DNA from: Cirrosporium novae-zelandiae
Lineage: Eukaryota
Direction: 5' to 3'
DNA length: 64,000 nucleotides
Assembly: GCA_026023565.1 (NCBI GenBank)
Contig: JAPETS010000020.1
Span: 496,001-560,000, forward strand
A program made the translations under genes and the position numbers. Numbering within the stretch: position 1 is the first letter of the stretch; the number at the start of each line of letters is the position of its first letter. The notes beneath the pieces are model-generated. The model was not told the origin of the DNA. It was given only the letters and a program-made list of their open reading frames with translations, and searched no databases. Shown here piece by piece: positions 3,001 to 45,343 of the stretch.

Positions 3001-6000
3001 TTCCTATATGAAAGACGGGAACTTCATTCGATTCAAGTATCATTATCGGAAACATGCTCGCCTTAGCGAACAGCTGCTTCGAGCAGAGTTTGCTTTGGGT
3101 CATATCACTGTAACTGTGTCTTGGTGTGCTCCTCCAACACGTCACCAGGAGAAAACCAGTCACTGGGTAAGATATCTTCCTCCAAGTTGCGAATACTAGA
3201 TTGCTAATAGCACTAAAGATTCCCCACTCTAAAGTGATGGAGGCAACCTTCGTCATTGGAGCTGATATTTACGAATGCAAGTGGTTTTATCAGGAAGATA
3301 AACATCATCCATTTATTCTTACAACCTTGAATGGTGATGAGGTTCTTACGCCCCCTCTAGTCGAATATGACTACCTTGGGATCCTTCGCAAACCTAAGGA
3401 CTGCAGCTTTCTAGAAGAGAACCCATTTGCTTCTTTCAATTCTTTAAGAGCTAACCCAATTGTCCGATGGCTTGGGTTGAACACTCACTGTTTTCCGATG
3501 TCGACGGGGCGAGCACGATCCCAGCTGTGGAAAGCCTGGAAAGACTCTGCAAGTTTTGACGGCGTAATGGTCAGATTCCTTGACGAGAGGCTTCTTAGAA
3601 GAGATCGACTACTCATCCCTTACTGGCGAAAGAGGGATATCGGTAACATTCCGGCTGCGATTCAATATGCAGACATTAATGCAGATGCTATTACTGCAAG
3701 CGTTGACCTTGATGACGACATTGCTAGTTGGTGCCCACTTGCCATCAAAATCACTGATTTTTTCCACTTTGGCTCCGGGGGTGATGCTGTCGCTAACACC
3801 AAACCTGATATTCTACATCCCGATACACGTGAAGCTCTACATGTGATGGCGTTAGATTCTGGCACTTGGCCAAATGAGGTTTGTACTCTAATATTCTCTC
3901 TAGATTATAAATGCTAATAGAATATGATTAATAGGGTGGCGGAGTATCGGCTTGCCGTCGAGATTTGATTAACAACCTAAAATCAATCCGGTGGCATATG
4001 GTTGTAGAGTCTGCGACCGACTTTGGAATTCCAAAACATCAAACAGAGGAAAATGTTCAGTCACTGAAGCTCATTCCCTTGTGGGGACTTGATCTCTTAA
4101 CACCCACTCATGGCATCTATCAGAACCGTCTTCATTCTGAGGTTCAAAATATCATTCGCGATGTCCCTCCTTCTGATATTGAGCGACATTTCCTGCCGAA
4201 TCTTGCGGCTCTAGTCAAATGTGCTCGAGCAGCTTCTCTTGATAGAGCAGCTGTTCGACAGTGCACCAGGGCTCTTGTAAATATTAATAGTTACTTCCAA
4301 GGTTCTCGGCATTGGAGTCAAGTTTGGAAAAGCGACATCGTCAAAAGTAGCTGGAGAAATTTATGGCTAGCGGAAGGGAAAGCTCATGGTCAACCACTTC
4401 CACCCTGGTTCGACACAGAGTTGCCAACATTAACGCACCTTGATACAGCGCTCGAGCTCTGGTTCAGGTATCTCTTCATCTTTTCCATCCCTATTCCAGA
4501 CAACATTCCGGCAGTTTTCCAGGCATCCCACCACAGTGTCAGTGCTACCTATGGGGTTATTTGCAAAATCAAGCATGGCTGCCAACTTCAGATCTGGGAC
4601 CATGCTATCAGTTGGAGAGAAACTAATCTTTGTCTCTCTTCAGCTCTATGCAAGCTACCACCATTTGTCCGAAATGCACTTCTTGGGTTAATGCGTATCA
4701 CTTCAGTACTTGTCCTGCACCATGCCGATGTCATTCTTCCTTGTGCGGATTTCTTCAATCCAGGATGGGAGGTTCAAATTGGCACGTGCCAAGGAGCTCT
4801 GGAGCACCCAAGCTCATTTGCACGGAAGGTTGACCCAATAGTCAATGGTATCCCGAACATGGAAAAATTTGCCCCTATCAAAGAGGTCAAGTCCAAGAAG
4901 CCCACGGTTACTATGCTATCCCATGTATGGTTCGCGAAGGATATAAAGACCGCACTTTTAGCCGCAGATATCATTGTCAATCAATGGGGCTTCGAAGATT
5001 ACCAACTAGATATCTACGGAGCCCTCGACAAAGCGCCGACTTATTCAACAGAATGCCAAGAAGTTGCTTCATCAAAAGGATTGAGGAAAAATGTCAACCT
5101 ATGTGGACCTTCAGATGCTTTGAAGGTTCTAGAAAAAACGGTACGCACCTTGAATTTTTAGTTCAATTATTGTTACTGATATGTTTCTTTAGTGGGTATT
5201 CCTAAATTCCTCGATCTCAGAAGGCCTCCCACTAGCACTTGGAGAAGCTGCTTTAACTGGCGCACCAATTGTTTGCACTGATGTCGGTGCTTCGATGAGA
5301 GTTCTAAGTAACCCTGAGGACTTTAAACGATATAGTGCTGTTGTGGCTCCTAATGACGCCACTGCCTTGGCCCGGGCTCAGATTAACCTTCTTGGAATGT
5401 TGGATGAATGGAGTGCCTATGCTGGGGATGCGCCGGGAGAAGTCGTCCCTACCTTACCAACTTCTCCTTCTCCTGATGACGTTGCAAAGATCACTAAGCG
5501 AATGTATGCCAAAAGCGGCCAGTTGCGTAAACTCGGTATGAAGGCCCGAGACATCATCCAAAGATCCTTCAGCGGCGAGAGGTATCTTCGAGAACATGAG
5601 CAGATGCTATGGGTTGGCAAGGCTCGCAATCAAATGGTGACCGGCACGCTCGAAGTACCTCTCCCTCTCCAGAGATCGGGTTATGCAACTCCGGTCGACA
5701 GTGAAACCATGACTTTTCCTAAGCCAGCCTTACCACCATGGCGGAATTCATGGAGAAATTCCAGAAGCCCATCTCCCTCTAGGTCCTCTACACCTCGAAG
5801 ACGTTCTCCAGCGCCTTCATTTTCTCCTAGTCTTGGAGGATCGACAGAAGTGGAGCGCCCCCTACGGCCACGAAGTCGAGTTTCGTTCGCTCGCAAATCC
5901 GGTGATGTAGGGAGAATGAAACTACACTTAAGGGAAGATTCACGACAAAGTACATTCAGTCACTTAAGCTCACCTAGTGTCTCTTCAACTCCTCGGCGGT

Positions 6001-12497: not shown

Positions 12498-12579
12498 CGA
12501 CGCCGACTGGATTTGAACCAGTGCCTCCGAAGAGATGTGATTTCTAGTCACACGCGTTAGACCACTCCGCCACGACGTC
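12498..12579 (-). tRNA. tRNA-Ser (anticodon AGA), intronless
   Basis: Minus strand GACGTCG-TGGCGGAGTGGTCTAACGCG-TGTGA-CTAGAAA-TCACA, long variable arm, then GGTTCAAATCC...CGGCGTC-G. Acceptor, anticodon and T stems pair; T-run about 30 nt downstream. Confidence 0.96.
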
Positions 12580-34602: not shown

Positions 34603-37600
34603 CTACTTCTTCCCTTTACCTTTTGGCCTTCCGCGGCCCTTCTTTGGTTTTACCTCCTCATCGTCATCCATATCCTCCTCATCGTTAGCCTTGCCCTTGC
34701 CCTTACCCTTCTTCTTTCCACCACCCTTGGTATCCGCCTTCTTAGCAGGCTTGCTTTTTGCAGCCTTGACATACTTATCCTTCTTCAACTCCTGCGCCCG
34801 AGCTTCTTCTTCCTTTTTCTTTTTCTCCTCTGGGTCCGTGATTTCCTCCGCTTCGGACTCTACGACCTCCTCGTCTGACTCTTCGAAGGCCTCATCAAGG
34901 TCAGGCCTCTCTTTGCTCACCTTCTTGGGGTCAGCAACACTACTAGCTTTCATAAAAGGCAATGGATGCGTTTGCTGATTATATTTCCTCGTAAATGCTC
35001 CTCTGACTTTGGCGTCAATTTTGACCTTGTCCTCAGCCATAGGACCCACGCCGAGCTCGATAATGGCATCCCAGTCATCTTTTGTCAAATAATAGCTGTC
35101 CATCAGCTCAATAATTTCAGGGATTTGGTCTTGACCCAGAATTTGAAGCTCTTTCACGAGCTGGTGCCAGAGAAGAGGCAAATACTCCTGCCGAATTGCA
35201 TGGCGGTCCGCGGAAGAACGAAGACGCATATGTCCTTGGACTTCTTTGATGAGACGCATGAGTTTGGCTAGAAGGTGGTCAGCACCATCCATAATCTACC
35301 ATAGAGAAAAGGATACTTACTTTGCTTGCTATTGTTGCCCAGCCAGGCTGTAAACTCTGTTCGGCCTCCTCCTGCTAGACTTCCAGCCATGAAGCTTGCA
35401 GGACGGACGAAACCGAAAATCGAGTGTTCATTCATCAACGTCCACTGCTGTTGTGACCCATGAATCATTCGATCAACAAGGTCACCATCGCTAATACTTT
35501 CAGCGGCATTATCAATTAACTCTAACAATTTCAGCTGGCGTTCCTTGCCCGAGTAAGTATTAGCTCGTATTGGAGATGCCTTGAGATAATTCTCCTGCAA
35601 CATGAGTGGGGCGAACTCGAAATCGTTGAAGTAGAGCTCCGTCTTATCGCTCAAAGACGCTGTAGAGTTTGGCGCAAACATATGACCGCCAAGTATCTTG
35701 GTAACAATATCCCAAGGCTTGAGAATAACATGCTTCTGCCAAGCTTTGGACATTTCCTTTCCCTTGTCGAAGCTCATGGCTTCTTGGTCGAGCTTAACGG
35801 TAGAAAGCATGTTGACGCATTGACGAAGGTCTGCATGGGTACCCTCGATAAGAGCATCTAGGGCAGGGGGTGGTATTTTCATGCCTTCCCGATAGCAGAT
35901 GGTCATCATCCTCGAACGGATTTGTTCTGTAGTCGGCCGCCTGAATGGCATATCAAAGGTGATACCGTCAAAAGGTCTCATCTTTGGGCTCCTCCGTTCA
36001 TTGCAAATGAGAATCATGGGTATCTGTGTTTTCTTGGCGATTGCAGCAAGGGTTCCAACACCACCTCGATCACCACCAGACATTCCATCGACTTCGTCCA
36101 TGATGAGGACAAGTTTCTTGTTCTCAGACTCAACCACCTTCCCGTCTCCGGCAAAATAACCACGAATAGATGTTGTGTCTAAGACATCCCCGAGACTTTC
36201 TTGAAGAAGTTTTTTGTTTCGAGTATCACTAGCATTCATCTCAAGAACATCGAATCCCTCGAGCTTGGCAACTAGATGTGCTGCGGTGGTTTTGCCGATC
36301 CCAGGTGGTCCATGGATCATTACAGCACGGAAGACGCCAAAACCCTCCTTGCCGGCAAGCTTGAACTTCTTTCTGGCACTTTCATGCCAGCCTCGAAGCC
36401 AAGTCTGAAGCTTCGTCACTTGCGCCTTGTTTCCAACAATCATATTCATGTTTGACGGAGCATATTTGGTAGTCCAAAGTCTTGATTCCACCTCTGGACC
36501 GACAGAGGCCTGTGCTGGAGGGCCCCCATTGCTAGATTCTCCCGCCTGTTTAGACCGTTTCTCCTCTTTATCAATCTCTTTTGCCATCTGTCTAATTTTT
36601 TCCCCTTCTTTTTCTTTCTTTTCTTTGATCTTTTCAGCGGCCTTACCATCCCCACCATTAGCAGGGAGACGCCTAATGAGCTCGAACAAGCCGTCTTCAT
36701 TGATAGTCTTCAAGTTATGTTTTTTGATGGTCTCGAGTTTCCTAGGACCAGCGTCGTTACCCAAGACAACATAACTAGTTTTGCTGCTTGGTGCAGTGGT
36801 GACCTTGCCCCCATAACGTTTAACTAGCTCTTGACCCTTATCACGTTCCAAGGACTCTAAAACGCCAGTGAAGACAAAAGCTAGTCCTTGCAAACAGTTC
36901 TCCTCCCCGACAGGAAGATCCTTACTCCCAGCAGCAGGTGGGGCCTCTTGTTGCTTGCCGAATTGCCATTTTTTAGGCTCTCCGGATGTTGGAGGTGGGG
37001 TAGGTGGTCGAACAGTAGGAATGCTATTAAAGATGTCCTGAAGCTCCTTACTCTCAGGCTGTTCCTCTTTCTTGGCACGAGGCTTCCGTGGGGATTTAGT
37101 GGATTTGGCTTTCTTGGGTGCTGGATCATCCTCGTCATCCTCATCAACGACTTTGGATTTGCGTTTTCTACTAGCTGTTGAGGGTTTCGGCTTTTCATCG
37201 ACAAATTCTTCATCGTCGTCTGGAACGATGAGGTTTTCATCTGGATCAACCTCTTTCATATTAATATCTTCTTCCTCAGAAAGAGTTTTCTTCTCTTTCT
37301 TTTTACTGTGTAACGCCAGCTTTTGCTTCGAAGATGGTTTTCGGACGGGTATGACATCTTCCTCTTCCTCATCACTCTCGACATATGCATCAGGCCCTTC
37401 CCCAGGCTTTTGAAACTCTGCCTGGAAGATATCGTCTGCATCATCATCATCATCATCGTCAAGGAAGTTCTCTTCAGTGTAAGTCTTGACGTCTGACTTC
37501 CTTGTCGAAGCTCGTGTAGGTGTCGCTTTGGGAGCCTCTGGTACGCTCTTTGCTGGTTTGGCCTTCTTAGAAGGTGCCGATCGAGAAGGTTTTGACTTGC

Positions 37601-39591: not shown

Positions 39592-40451
39592 ATGAAAACC
39601 AGAAAGATTGCTCGGGGCATATCTTCTCAATTCCTCGGGCAGATGCATTTTCGGACTTCAAAACCAATATGCCGTAAGTGCTTGGGATGTATTCGCCTGG
39701 TTTTGTGATATATATCATAGCTACACACATATATTGATACGTTATTGAATAAACAGATGGTTCTTTCCCCAGCCCTCTCGCCTCCGCTCGCGCCTTTTCG
39801 ACAACCTCTCCCAAACTCGACTGGCTCACTCCCAAAAAGCTGGAGGCCAAAAAATCTCCAAAAGGTCGTCCTCGTGTCCCAACCGGAGGATCCGTCCGAG
39901 GCACCACTGTTGTCTGGGGTGATTATGGGTTACGAATGCGAGACCATGATCGGAGGGTATCTGCCGCACATCTGAAGATCGGAGAAGAAACCATCAGACA
40001 ACGACTTAGAGGTCTAAAATATAGGTTGTACACGAGGGTATGCGCCAACATTGGTGTGTATACAAGCGGCAACGAGATGAGAATGGGAAAAGGAAAGGGT
40101 AGCTTTGATTACTGGGCAAGTAGGGTGGCTGTTAGCAAAATCATATTTGAGCTGAAGGGAGAGTTCCATGAGAAAGTTGCCAGAGAAGCATTCAGACTAG
40201 CTGGGAATAAGCTACCTGGTGAGTTTTCTCTAACTATAGCCTCTATCGCTATTTTGGGTACAAACACCATTCTAATTCTTCAACTCGTTTTAGGGCTTTA
40301 TGAATTTGTCAAGAAAGGTGATCCACCAGTCCAAGGCCTCACCAAACTTCCACCTGGAACAACATTACAGGACATGAAGCGATCACAGAAAAAGATGCCC
40401 CCAAGATTATCAGCTCCGGCACCCCAGCTACCAGCGACAACGCCCCCATAA
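39592..40451 (+). CDS. MRPL16: Mitochondrial ribosomal protein uL16m
   Basis: KGRPRVPTGGSVRGTTVVWGDYGLRM, RMGKGKGSFDYWA, EAFRLAGNKLPG; introns 39674-39756 and about 40219-40292. Confidence 0.94.
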
Positions 40452-40781
40452 TCACTATATATATCCTTTCCGTAGCTGTAAGAATTCAAACTCCTTGAAC
40501 AAGATCTCCACTTCATAGCTGTCTGCTCTACCAGTAGCCAGATGGTCAGGGACTCTTCAACCATGGTGTAGTCATGATGAAATTAGTAGTCGTCGTAGAA
40601 ATTTTAAAGTAGAAGCATAATGTGGCCTAAAATATTGAACGCAAAGCCATATACTGCAAGCATGGGCTCATGGTGTGCATGCGAATGCGAACGGCTCCCT
40701 AAGATGTTAAGAAACCGTTTATCCTATATGAAATCCTTCATTTACAAGCCCCCCAAAAATAATATAATTTTTTTTACGAAT

Positions 40782-41083
40782 AGATGTAAGCAGTCATGGT
40801 TTTGCCCAACATTCATAGACCGACGGCCATCAGAAACGCTTTGGAATATGACGCTCTGCCCCCAACCCCACCTCAACCGAACTCACCCACCCCCAAGGAG
40901 GCAAGGAGCTCAAAGTTTCGGATTCCGGGAAAGGAAGCATTTGCTCTGAGATCTGTTCGACCGACGGAAAATTGACATCACGGGAGTGCGAAGATGGCTC
41001 CTTGAAGGTGGTCGATAAGAGTCCACGGCGTACAACCGACTGAGCGGTGCCCAGTGGGACGAGGGGACACAGATCTTATGGTT
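40782..41083 (-). ncRNA. snR30: Probable snR30/U17 box H/ACA snoRNA (about 300 nt)
   Basis: Minus strand: TATAAA about 55 nt upstream; start AACCATA; 5' hairpin (AGATCTGT/ACAGATCT, TCGACC/GGTCGA); H box AGAGCA (40942-40947); 3' hairpin holding m1-like ATATTCCAA (40841-40849) and m2 AAACCAT (40796-40802) opposite each other; ACA box 3 nt from the end (ACATCT). Confidence 0.82.
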
Positions 41084-41572
41084 TGGTGAGGAAAAGAAAG
41101 AAAAAGAAGAGAAAGGTAATGGGGGAGGGGAGAGCTTTATATGGGTGGCTGTGGGAGCTAAGATTTTTTTACACACTAGATTGGATTTGGTTAGTGTGTG
41201 TATCATTTACAAGAAGCTTTGGCCGTTTACGCGAAAATTGATTGATTATCGCGTTCCTCCTCACATTTACCAGAACACGATTAGAGCATATATTTATTCA
41301 TTCTACCGATGACCTTTGTAATAGAACTCAAGCTTTACACCTATCAAATTTACTTACATTAATGTAGCATAAATAACATTCCAAAATTGCTAGCGTATAG
41401 TTTTTACCATATCCAAGCAAAGCAAATTACATAGACTCGCCAAACACCAGCACGAACCCCCCCCCCCATATTATCCCAACAAGAAAAAACCCCCCCCCCG
41501 CGTCCCAAAATTCCGACAAATGATGATCTCCCACCAACCCCACACTCCCTCATAATCCACAACACATAAAAA

Positions 41573-42343
41573 ATGTCTTCATCACCAGCAGATTCCTCCA
41601 AAACGGGCATCGCCATCGCGGCCCTCATTGTCGGTGGCCTCGGCGGCTATTTCCTCGGTCAAACATCTAGCCTTGACGTGTTTTCGGGAAAGGGAGGGAA
41701 AAGCTGGCCGAATGATTTTGATGTCAAGGTGCATGCGGATTCTTCTGACGAAGATGAAAGTGGGGATGAGGATGATGAGGATGAAGAAGAGGAGCAGGGA
41801 GAATTGAATGAGTTCAAGGGGAATAATGAGGAGTGTAAGCTTGTGCTTGTAGTTAGGACGGATTTGGGGATGAGTAAAGGTAGGCTTTGGTTGTTTTGGA
41901 TTTTTGTGACTTTTTTCTTTCTTTCTTTCTTTCTTTCCATCTCTTTTTCTTTTTCTTGTCCTTCTCTGCTCTTACCATCTCTCCAATTTCATTACACGCA
42001 CACACACATATATATATACAACCTTACATATACCACAGGAAAAATCGCCGCCCAATGCTCCCACGCCACCCTCGCCGTCTACAAATACTTCCTCGCCCAC
42101 GCCCCCTCTTCCCCAATCCTCAAACGCTGGGAGCGCGCCGGCCAAGCAAAAGTCGCTTTACAAGTCAAGGGAGAGGACGAGCTACTGGTACTACAAGCTC
42201 AAGCAATCAGCTTGGGATTGTGTGCGCAGGTTATACAGGACGCGGGGAGGACGCAGATTGCTAGTGGGAGTAGGACTGTGTTGGGGATTTTGGGACCTAG
42301 GGGGGTGGTTGATGGGGTTACGGGGGGGTTGAAGTTGTTGTGA
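41573..42343 (+). CDS. PTH2: Peptidyl-tRNA hydrolase 2
   Basis: N-terminal TM anchor; KLVLVVRTDLGMSKG|KIAAQCSHA, GQAKVAL, IQDAGRTQIASGSRTVLG; intron 41880-42038. Confidence 0.95.
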   Translation: MSSSPADSSKTGIAIAALIVGGLGGYFLGQTSSLDVFSGKGGKSWPNDFDVKVHADSSDEDESGDEDDEDEEEEQGELNEFKGNNEECKLVLVVRTDLGMSKGRLWLFWIFVTFFFLSFFLSISFSFSCPSLLLPSLQFHYTHTHIYIYNLTYTTGKIAAQCSHATLAVYKYFLAHAPSSPILKRWERAGQAKVALQVKGEDELLVLQAQAISLGLCAQVIQDAGRTQIASGSRTVLGILGPRGVVDGVTGGLKLL

Positions 42344-43132: not shown

Positions 43133-45343
43133 CTACCCCGGCACCAACCCCCCCACACTCCTCCAAAAATCGCATCGAATACCTCTCCCCCCCTCCCACG
43201 TATACGCATTCACCAACGTAAAATCATTCTTCAACCCCGGTTCCTCATACTCAGTCGCATTCGGCGCCCCGCCACCCACCACGGCCGTCGAGAACTCCCG
43301 GCCTCCCGTCTCGTTCAGGTTCAGTTGGTAGGGGGCGTAGATGGAATATTGGGGCCAGGTGCTGGCGGGGTTTGGGGTGCTGCTGTTGCTGTTGTTGCCG
43401 TTTGCGATGGCGGAGGGGATGGAGGGGTTAGAGGTGATTATGAAGTTGCCCCATATAGCTATTGTTTGTGGGGGAGATGTAAGTAAATGCGTGCAAATGG
43501 TGTTTTTTGGGGGGAGGGGGAGGGGGGCGGGATGGGTTGTAAAAAAGAGAAAATAGGGTGAGTATCTATATAAATGTACGTACTCATAAACGCCTTCTCA
43601 AAATCAGGACCCTGGGCCGGCGACGCGGGCCCAAAATACCCCGTCAAATCTGCCCCGTGCTGTGCAGCAGGCACCGAGTATTGATATTTGTATGCGGCAC
43701 GACCGTCACCGGCGAATGCTTCCGCGAGCCAGTAGCTGGGACAGACAAAAGTGGTTTCGGCGTAAACGTTCCGTTTGATTTGTGAGATGAGAATGTTTTT
43801 TTTTGGCTTGGGATGAAAAGAAAGGCTAGGGTTCGATTGGGAAAGTATAAGGGGTAGGACAGGATAGGGCTTACATCCGCTCGCTGCTGCTGGCCTGTGC
43901 CAAAGGAGCTTTCGTTCAAAGCTGTAGCTCCCGTGTACCCCAGTGTGGCATAATCGGGGAGGCTGGCATCTACGGATGCATTTGTGCTGGGATAATAGTA
44001 CAGGATCTTTGCAATGTCGTTGTTTGTGAAGAGGGGGAAGGTGAGTCTCAACCACGCGACGAAGTCGTCTTCGGTGGTGATGTTTTGGACCGTAGACGAT
44101 GGCCCTTCGTTCGCATTGTTCTAGAAAGAGAGAATGCCTATTAGCAGCAGAAGCAATCGGTACCAGTCTATGAGTTTTGGAGGAGAGTGTGACGTACCCC
44201 TGCCAACATCCTCACCCCATTAACTTGCTTCTTTAAAAGCTGCTGGCTGGGCAATTGCTGTATATACACGCCATCGGTCACAGGCACGAATCCCCACGTC
44301 CCATACTTCCCGCTCGCCGAAACAAACGCGCTTGCATTTTGCAGCGTGTCCGTATCCTTCTCCACCAAGCACTTGAAGACCGTCTGAGCAGTGTTCCCAT
44401 ATGCTCTAGAAATGTCGCATCCAGCCGCATACGCAAAGGCATAGTACGACTGCGAGGGCATCCAATCCGCATATCCATATTGCATGCGCAGGGTGGGTGA
44501 CGCAGCAATGATATTCGAGAACAGGGAGTCGCCCAGCATACCTCCAAAGGCCATGGCCTGGAGCATGACGGAGCCCGCTCCGGCAGACTCGCCAGCAATG
44601 GTAACCTGGGAGGAGTTTCCCCCGAAGAGATGAATGTACTTCTGCACCCACCGCAACGCAAAGGTTTGGTCCAGCAGTCCCGCGTTAACAACCCCATTCC
44701 GAAATACCTCATCCGAAGCCAGGAACCCAAACGCTCCCAGCCGATACTGGATCGCTACACCCACAAATCCCTTCCCGTTTGTGTTGATAAGCTTACTCAG
44801 ATCTTGACTTCCATCTCCCCTGCCATATCCACCCCCATGTATCCATACCATCACCGGCAGTAATGTGCCCTCCCCTTCTCCTTCTCCTTCTTCCGACTCT
44901 AGGGATCCAGATGGCGCATACACATTCAAAAACAAGCAATCCTCACTCCCCATATAACTTATCTCAGGATCATACGGCCCATCACCACTCTGGGGACACC
45001 GTTCCGGAAGTGCAGTCGCCTCGATGACAGAGTCTCTACTGGCAAAAGGCACCTGGGGAGCTTGCCATCGCAGAGCCCCTGTAGGCGGTGCAGCATATCG
45101 GATTCCTTTCCAGGTGTGCAGACCAGTGCTGATATTTGCAACGCCGTGGTAGATGGAGTAGCCAAGGTCAACTGTTAGATCATCTTGAGGTTGGCGTTTG
45201 CTGTTCAGGGAATCGAATGGATTTTTACTGCTGCTACCAATGCCAACAGCTCCAGCGATGGCGCAAAGGAAATTAGCTATAATAATCAGATTAATCGATC
45301 CAACCAACGAGAGTTTAAACATCCTGACAATAATAAATTTCAT
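43133..45343 (-). CDS. Secreted type-B carboxylesterase/lipase
   Basis: Signal-peptide-like N-terminus, GIRYAAPPTGALRW, SEDCLFLNV, VWIHGGGY, catalytic GESAG, HGADL, C-terminal WEGGRGIRCDFWRS; three introns. Start may be 45322. Confidence 0.93.

What the first reader, a model, noticed from the sequence alone, without database searches (positions are those of the whole stretch)
40782..41083. Hidden snR30/U17-like H/ACA snoRNA gene between MRPL16 and PTH2
Seen: a minus-strand non-coding unit with its own TATAAA, a long 5' hairpin, an H box (AGAGCA), and a 3' hairpin (GCAG..GTCAT / ATGACTGC) whose internal loop holds ATATTCCAA and AAACCAT, ending in ACA-TCT. Known: snR30/U17 carries the conserved m1 (AUAUUCCUA) and m2 (AAACCAU) motifs, which pair with 18S rRNA expansion segment 6 and are required for 18S processing. 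It diverges quickly and is easily missed. Inference: this is the roughly 300-nt orthologue. The m1 variant UAUUCCA could add one base pair with the 18S sequence UGGAAUA.
Basis: partly seen in the sequence, partly recalled or inferred. Interest (0 to 1): 0.72.

Follow-up and report, generated by a model that had tools for sequence, protein, structure and literature searches.

The report
Fungal snR30 ribosome-assembly RNA gene
This is a real, single-copy gene for snR30/U17, the small nucleolar RNA that eukaryotes need to make the small ribosomal subunit; the RNA type is well known, and the one fresh point is that the RNA family catalogued without a function as Afu_309 in moulds appears to be this same RNA.

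Summary
Confirmed. Window 40782-41083 (minus) is the snR30/U17 gene of a filamentous ascomycete. It matches Rfam Afu_309 (88.8 bits, cut-off 48), once in the genome. Its m1 and m2 motifs give 7 and 6 Watson-Crick pairs with the genome's own 18S ES6 sites. A model built from 10 other snR30/U17-type 3' hairpins scores it 51 bits, against at most 16.8 in 58 control loci. Outside the 3' hairpin it shares collinear exact blocks with yeast snR30 (3 of 2000 shuffles). Rfam's own snR30 and SNORA73 models do not reach their cut-offs here, and expression was not shown. It is a new member of a known kind: the 296-nt Neurospora relative Nc ACA12 was cloned in 2009 and matched to snR30 in 2018. I found no paper linking Afu-309 itself to snR30; Rfam lists it as a clanless sRNA. 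Minor departures: m2-ACA spacer of 8 rather than 7 nt, and a GGA(A)GC block kept in the 'variable' 5' domain in 11 of 12 genes.

The parts
40782..41083 (-). snR30/U17 H/ACA snoRNA gene, about 302 nt (5' end inferred)
   Evidence: Rfam Afu_309 88.8 bits over 40782-41093; single copy; first 7 nt identical to the first 7 nt of yeast snR30
41136..41141 (-). TATAAA box, followed by a pyrimidine tract down to about 41086; likely own polymerase II promoter
   Evidence: sequence; function inferred
41070..41076 (-). 5' strand of the basal stem of the 5' domain (pairs with 40955-40949)
   Evidence: fold; same stem in the Afu_309 consensus
40996..41005 (-). UCAAGGAGCC block of the 5' domain, identical in yeast snR30
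   Evidence: GGA(A)GC core in 11 of 12 genes
40949..40955 (-). 3' strand of the basal stem of the 5' domain
40942..40947 (-). H box (AGAGCA, fits ANANNA)
   Evidence: the only ANANNA directly after the 5' domain
40876..40913 (-). core of the internal hairpin; both strands (40913-40906, 40885-40876) match yeast snR30 letter for letter
40848..40856 (-). 5' strand of the basal stem of the 3' hairpin (pairs with 40797-40788, one bulged U)
   Evidence: one both-sided change among 3 counted pairs
40841..40849 (-). m1 motif (AUAUUCCAA); 40848-40842 pair with own 18S rm1
   Evidence: 7 Watson-Crick pairs with L002 2107-2113
40813..40828 (-). distal stem-loop of the 3' hairpin and the following C-x-AUGA; loop U40823 aligns with yeast U565
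   Evidence: alignment A3, pairs, yeast numbering, Krr1 contact in yeast (PMC12095548)
40796..40802 (-). m2 motif (AAACCAU); 40802-40797 pair with own 18S rm2
   Evidence: 6 Watson-Crick pairs with L002 2143-2148
40782..40787 (-). ACA box and 3-nt tail, 8 nt after m2; followed by an A/U-rich tract
39936..40451 (+). 3' part of the neighbouring mitochondrial L16 gene (converges on the RNA's 3' end)
   Evidence: PF00252 E 5.7e-25
41573..42343 (+). neighbouring PTH2 gene (diverges from the RNA's promoter)
   Evidence: PF01981 E 1.5e-36

Best explanation
The locus is an independently transcribed gene for the snR30/U17 orthologue in its compact, about 300-nt filamentous-ascomycete form, the family Rfam calls Afu_309. 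The RNA would load H/ACA core proteins (Cbf5, Nop10, Nhp2, Gar1) at its H and ACA boxes. [quoted passage not shown] With Krr1, Kri1 and Utp23 it would chaperone the platform subdomain and allow early pre-rRNA cleavage, without making pseudouridine. Shown here: sequence anatomy, homology, single copy, pairing potential. Inferred from yeast work: transcription, protein binding, the role in cleavage, essentiality.
For: Afu_309 88.8 bits, E 2.9e-22. Own 18S has one GGAATA and one TGGTTT, 35 nt apart; 7 + 6 Watson-Crick pairs; the intervening 29 nt fold into a 12-bp hairpin, -10.9 kcal/mol. Model R1 (10 hairpins, none of the Afu_309 family): window 51.1 bits, E 1.3e-10, next best in the 64 kb 10.8; Afu_309 members L079, L060, L034 score 35-41 bits; best of 58 control loci 16.8. 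Collinear exact blocks with yeast snR30: 0 of 2000 shuffles overall, 3 of 2000 with the 3' hairpin removed. 7 counted pairs hold in 98 of 98 cells, 11 with both-sided change. Loop U matching yeast U565 is invariant in 14 of 14 rows and was not in the search pattern. SNORA73's only match in the genome at E up to 10 is this locus. Nc ACA12 shares the 5'-domain, m1, distal and m2 blocks (read by eye), is expressed and was matched to snR30. Afu-309 gives a 320-nt northern band. Kri1 (1 match) and two Fcf1-family genes are in the genome.
Against: Rfam snR30 (RF01271) gives no match at E up to 10; SNORA73 reaches 19.3 bits, E 0.17, against a cut-off of 74, and at that threshold also rings in 4 of 14 prokaryote controls. 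The m2-ACA spacer is 8 nt, published as invariantly 7, though one added base was harmless in yeast. Whole-RNA folding is no better than shuffles; the 3' hairpin alone z +0.6. The C3 pairing of the internal hairpin with ES7 is not found (111 of 200 shuffles as good). 9 of the 10 training hairpins were retrieved with a pattern drawn partly from this locus, so they share its motifs by design; one (L019) had no Rfam match. No expression data for this organism.
Confidence: 0.95

Rival explanations
1. Afu_309 is a separate lineage-specific structured RNA (for example a regulatory long non-coding RNA) that only resembles snR30 in its 3' end.
For: Rfam types it as a clanless sRNA; the discovery paper could assign no class (PMC2377427); a 2026 preprint handles afu-309 as a plain ncRNA that falls at 42 C (PMC13015456); Rfam snR30 and SNORA73 cut-offs are not met.
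Against: Blocks shared with yeast snR30 run in order from the first base to the tail; no other snR30 candidate was found in the genome by RF00045 or RF01271 or among the other pattern hits; the Neurospora member was matched to snR30.
Confidence: 0.025
2. It is an H/ACA RNA that acts mainly as an ordinary pseudouridylation guide.
For: H and ACA boxes and a pocket-like internal loop are present.
Against: [quoted passage not shown] I did not run a guide-target search on the distal pocket.
Confidence: 0.01
3. It is a silent or decayed copy, or chance motifs in an intergenic stretch.
For: Loose motif pattern occurs at chance level in the genome; folding energy unremarkable; no transcript data.
Against: Single copy of an RNA essential in yeast, all boxes intact, TATA box upstream, both-sided pair changes kept, 88.8-bit family match.
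Confidence: 0.015

Closest known systems
Rfam RF01512 Afu_309; A. fumigatus Afu-309 (AM921953; PMC2377427, passages)
   Same: Full-length match, model positions 1-322, 88.8 bits; same size (318-nt cDNA, 320-nt band), intergenic, same three-domain layout.
   Different: Listed with no class or function; this copy has a shorter first arm (18 against 45 hidden positions) and an 8-nt m2-ACA spacer against 9 in the consensus.
Neurospora crassa Nc ACA12 (EU780991; PMC2780460, passages and one supplement passage), matched to snR30 in PMC5824354 (passages)
   Same: 296 nt, intergenic, H/ACA; shares the 5'-domain blocks, m1 AUAUUCCAA, distal hairpin and m2 (compared by eye).
   Different: m2-ACA spacer 10 nt; H box AGAAGA; first arm and internal hairpin differ in sequence.
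S. cerevisiae snR30 (Rfam RF01271; locus L052, 739 bits; PMC2664660, PMC7601244, PMC12095548)
   Same: [quoted passage not shown]
   Different: 609 nt against about 302; m1 ends UA (6 pairs published) against AA (7 pairs here); spacer 7 against 8; ES7 pairing (C3) not found here; Rfam model does not detect this gene.
Vertebrate U17/E1 (Rfam RF00045 SNORA73)
   Same: 3' hairpin aligns with the same spacing between m1, distal hairpin and m2; GGAGC in the 5' domain.
   Different: About 210 nt and usually intronic (the latter recalled); only 19.3 bits against a cut-off of 74.

Membership tests
snR30/U17 | m1 and m2 motifs on opposite strands of the basal side of the 3'-hairpin pocket | tested here: met
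   m1 differs from the table in PMC7601244 at position 8 (A for U)
snR30/U17 | m1 and m2 complementary to rm1 and rm2 in the cognate 18S ES6, with a hairpin between | tested here: met
   7 and 6 Watson-Crick pairs, 12-bp intervening hairpin; pairing potential only
snR30/U17 | H box after the 5' domain and ACA box 3 nt from the 3' end | tested here: met
   boxes present; the true 3' end is inferred from the Afu_309 model, not mapped
snR30/U17 | 7 nt between m2 and ACA (called invariant in PMC2664660) | tested here: inconclusive
   8 nt by count; 7 if the bulged U of the best fold is left out. One added base had no effect in yeast. Related fungal genes show 6, 9 and 10, and the 10-nt one is accepted as snR30
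snR30/U17 | distal element of the 3' hairpin (protein docking site; U565 in yeast) | tested here: met
   4-bp stem kept in 14 of 14 rows, loop U invariant; the base matching A566 is not kept
snR30/U17 | internal hairpin between H box and 3' hairpin | tested here: met
   fold; both strands match yeast
snR30/U17 | Rfam gathering score of RF01271 or RF00045 (a database criterion, not a biological one) | tested here: not met
   no match; 19.3 of 74 bits; these models also leave 6 of the SNORA73-type matches under the cut-off
snR30/U17 | extra ES7 pairing of the internal hairpin (C3; proposed for yeasts, not universal) | tested here: not met
   -18.6 kcal/mol, 111 of 200 shuffles as good; no positive control with yeast 18S was run
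snR30/U17 | expressed, nucleolar, bound to Cbf5, required for A0-A2 cleavage | not testable with these tools
   relatives are expressed; nothing for this organism
Rfam Afu_309 (RF01512) | score above gathering cut-off over the whole model | tested here: met
   88.8 against 48 bits, positions 1-322
pseudouridylation guide H/ACA snoRNA | [quoted passage not shown] | not tested
   no target search run; the conserved complementarity is basal

The most novel reading that the evidence does not exclude
Beyond Afu_309 being the mould snR30 (likely, about 0.93), the 5' domain and internal hairpin, described as variable and dispensable in yeast, hold an unrecognised conserved functional site: a GGA(A)GC block present in fungi and animals (11 of 12 genes) and a short internal helix whose two strands are the same in budding yeast and this mould. 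These would be a docking site for an assembly factor such as Kri1, Nhp2 or Rok1, or a second RNA contact, and the compact 300-nt form would show the minimal snR30 scaffold.
Probability: 0.25. Interest if true: 0.55.

Novelty: new member of a known kind. Interest (0 to 1): 0.27.

Why it matters
As a gene call it is routine: snR30/U17 is reported across eukaryotes and its Neurospora form is in print. The usable gain is a relabelling. Rfam RF01512 finds this RNA in moulds where the snR30 and SNORA73 models fail, so placing it in the SNORA73/snR30 clan would give those genomes their missing snR30 annotation. It would also change how A. fumigatus afu-309 data are read: a drop at 42 C would more likely reflect ribosome synthesis than a dedicated regulatory RNA. 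The half-length fungal form also narrows down which parts of the 609-nt yeast RNA are kept, and shows that the m2-ACA spacing is not fixed at 7 in this lineage.

Tried and rejected
Expression: no RNA holder was listed for 40300-41600; this is no evidence either way. Synteny: the window's L16 and PTH2 proteins found nothing in 7 loci (L034, L060, L079, L019, L036, L052, L055), but the three Afu_309 loci are short or cut at the gene, so synteny is untested; the identities of Afu4g10420 and Afu4g10430 were not checked. Pattern scans of prokaryote genomes (18 loci) and viral contigs (9 loci) gave no homologue and served as controls. A 10-12-bp complementarity of the H-box region to 18S just upstream of rm1 was rejected: it overlaps the H box, a 10-mer is expected by chance between these two RNAs, and the bases differ in the Afu_309 consensus, Nc ACA12 and L079. 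A 23-bp helix (one bulge, 6 G-U) between 40932-40910 and 18S near L002 2397-2420 reaches 4 of 300 shuffles, but that rRNA stretch is G/U-rich, also attracts an unrelated part of yeast snR30, and the RNA bases are not kept in relatives; left as probably chance. C3/ES7 pairing not supported. A coding reading of the interval: four ORFs, no Pfam match. Atzorn 2004 is not held and the supplements of PMC5824354 could not be read; either may already note the 5'-domain block, and the latter may list the Aspergillus gene under the snR30 family.

Full report
Observation. The neighbours are a mitochondrial L16 gene and PTH2, both on the plus strand, so the RNA is an independent unit, divergent from PTH2. 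Motifs alone would not prove anything: a loose m1..m2..ACA pattern has 8 matches at 7 places in the 31.4-Mb genome against 4 for its reversed control, and the 312-nt strand folds no better than shuffles (z +0.44, 65 of 100). By domain, only the 5' part is somewhat stable (9 of 300 shuffles; internal hairpin 41 of 300, 3' hairpin 213 of 300).

Family. An Rfam scan of the whole window gives 2 matches over cut-off: a tRNA and Afu_309 at 40782-41093, 88.8 bits against 48, over the full model. It is the only copy in the genome by family and by DNA search. Rfam types Afu_309 as sRNA with no clan. The snR30 model finds nothing in the genome; SNORA73 finds this locus only, weakly (19.3 bits, E 0.17, cut-off 74).

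Pairing with the target. The genome's own 18S gene (L002) holds one GGAATA and one TGGTTT, in ES6, 35 nt apart. That is the arrangement shown genetically in yeast (PMC2664660, passages and two sections), where 6-8 pairs are the usual range.

Homology tests. A pattern scan of metagenome contigs returned 68 loci. I gave 20 of them to Rfam: one is S. cerevisiae-type snR30 (L052, 739 bits), six loci carry eight SNORA73 matches (two over cut-off), three carry Afu_309 over cut-off (L079, L060, L034), and the rest had no such match. From 10 hairpins outside the Afu_309 family (including L019, chosen on motifs, stem and ACA although Rfam did not match it) I built model R1. It scores the window 51.1 bits, E 1.3e-10, next best 10.8. 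Over 71 loci (37 of the 68 metagenome loci, near-identical repeats left out; 7 own-genome, 18 prokaryote, 9 viral), the three Afu_309 members score 35-41 bits and the best of 58 controls 16.8. Most controls carry the search motifs, so the gap comes from other positions; model E-values are rough. Separately, exact blocks of 7 or more bases shared with L052 form a collinear chain that 0 of 2000 shuffles reach, and 3 of 2000 when the 3' hairpin is removed: the first 7 bases, a 10-mer in the 5' domain, and both strands of the internal helix. On a 14-row alignment, 7 counted pairs hold in 98 of 98 cells, 11 with both sides changed; slid controls give 28-42%; related rows inflate the shuffle control. 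The loop U at 40823 is invariant and aligns with yeast U565, the base held in a Krr1 pocket in the cryo-EM structure (PMC12095548, passages and two sections).

Mechanism. Most likely the RNA binds two sets of H/ACA proteins, docks m1 and m2 on pre-18S ES6, and with Krr1, Kri1 and Utp23 folds the platform subdomain so that early cleavages can occur; it does not modify the rRNA. Kri1 and two Fcf1-family genes are in the genome (which is Utp23 was not checked). Anatomy, homology and pairing potential are shown; expression, protein binding and function are inferred from yeast (review PMC7601244, passages and one section).

Departures. The m2-ACA spacer is 8 nt. PMC2664660 calls it invariantly 7 but found one extra base harmless. 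Of 12 genes counted, 10 have 7, this one 8 and L079 6; L034 and Nc ACA12 have 10 and the Afu_309 consensus 9; L060 lacks the ACA. The best fold bulges the extra U. The ES7 pairing proposed for yeasts (PMC4105744, passages) is not seen. A GGA(A)GC block occurs in the 5' part of 11 of 12 genes, with a chance of 0.15-0.43 each; the motif was chosen after looking, several genes are close kin, and L034 and L060 were left out.

What is known. Afu-309 was cloned in 2008 as an unclassified 320-nt RNA (PMC2377427, passages). Nc ACA12, 296 nt, was cloned in 2009 as an orphan H/ACA RNA (PMC2780460, passages and one supplement passage); by eye it shares the 5'-domain, m1, distal and m2 blocks with this gene. 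In 2018 it was matched to snR30 (PMC5824354, passages; supplements not readable). So a 300-nt snR30 in filamentous fungi is in print. The link from Afu-309 or RF01512 to snR30 I did not find: 0 papers hold both names, accession searches return only the 2008 paper, and the two relevant papers that name afu-309 have no occurrence of snR30. PMC3890542, PMC8216456 and PMC12921299 (term searches only) add nothing. The library lacks most subscription papers, so this is limited evidence of absence. Earlier notes of this scan had no look-alike of the sequence.

Verdict. Real, correctly interpreted, and a new member of a known kind. Confidence in snR30 identity 0.95; interest 0.27, carried by the Afu_309 relabelling and the conserved 5'-domain block.

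Noticed in passing
window 41078-41084 (-): A second exact copy of the m2 heptamer lies at the inferred 5' end; yeast snR30 also starts with these bases, so it may be a conserved leader or start signal.
   Followed up: partly
window 40998-41004 and 40903-40910 (-): The GGAGC block of the 5' domain could pair over 8 bases with the 5' strand of the internal helix (seen by eye); yeast keeps about 7 such pairs, Neurospora fewer. A possible alternative fold, untested.
   Followed up: no
window 40910-40932 (-) with L002 2397-2420: 23-bp one-bulge helix possible with 18S just after ES7 (4 of 300 shuffles); not kept in relatives, probably chance.
   Followed up: yes
L060:1363-1639 and L079:441-715: Two almost identical Afu_309 members that differ only at both ends; L060 has lost the ACA box and the basal 5' stem, so it may be a decayed duplicate or an assembly chimera.
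   Followed up: partly
L019:1436-1723 and L036: An snR30-like RNA (m1, m2, 7-nt spacer, ACA) that no Rfam family matched at E up to 0.5: another lineage missing from the Rfam models.
   Followed up: partly
L031:724-951 and 1421-1681; L038:1988-2228 and 3051-3290: Two U17 copies within about 1 kb on each contig, apparently in successive introns.
   Followed up: no
L002:1307-3542: The genome's 18S gene spans 2236 nt against a model of 1831, so it carries about 400 nt of insertion, probably an intron.
   Followed up: no
window 12498-12579 (-): tRNA gene (Rfam 58.1 bits) with a long variable arm.
   Followed up: no
window 35268-37259 (-) and 44168-45343 (-): RFC1 (BRCT and AAA domains) and a carboxylesterase gene nearby; ordinary.
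   Followed up: partly
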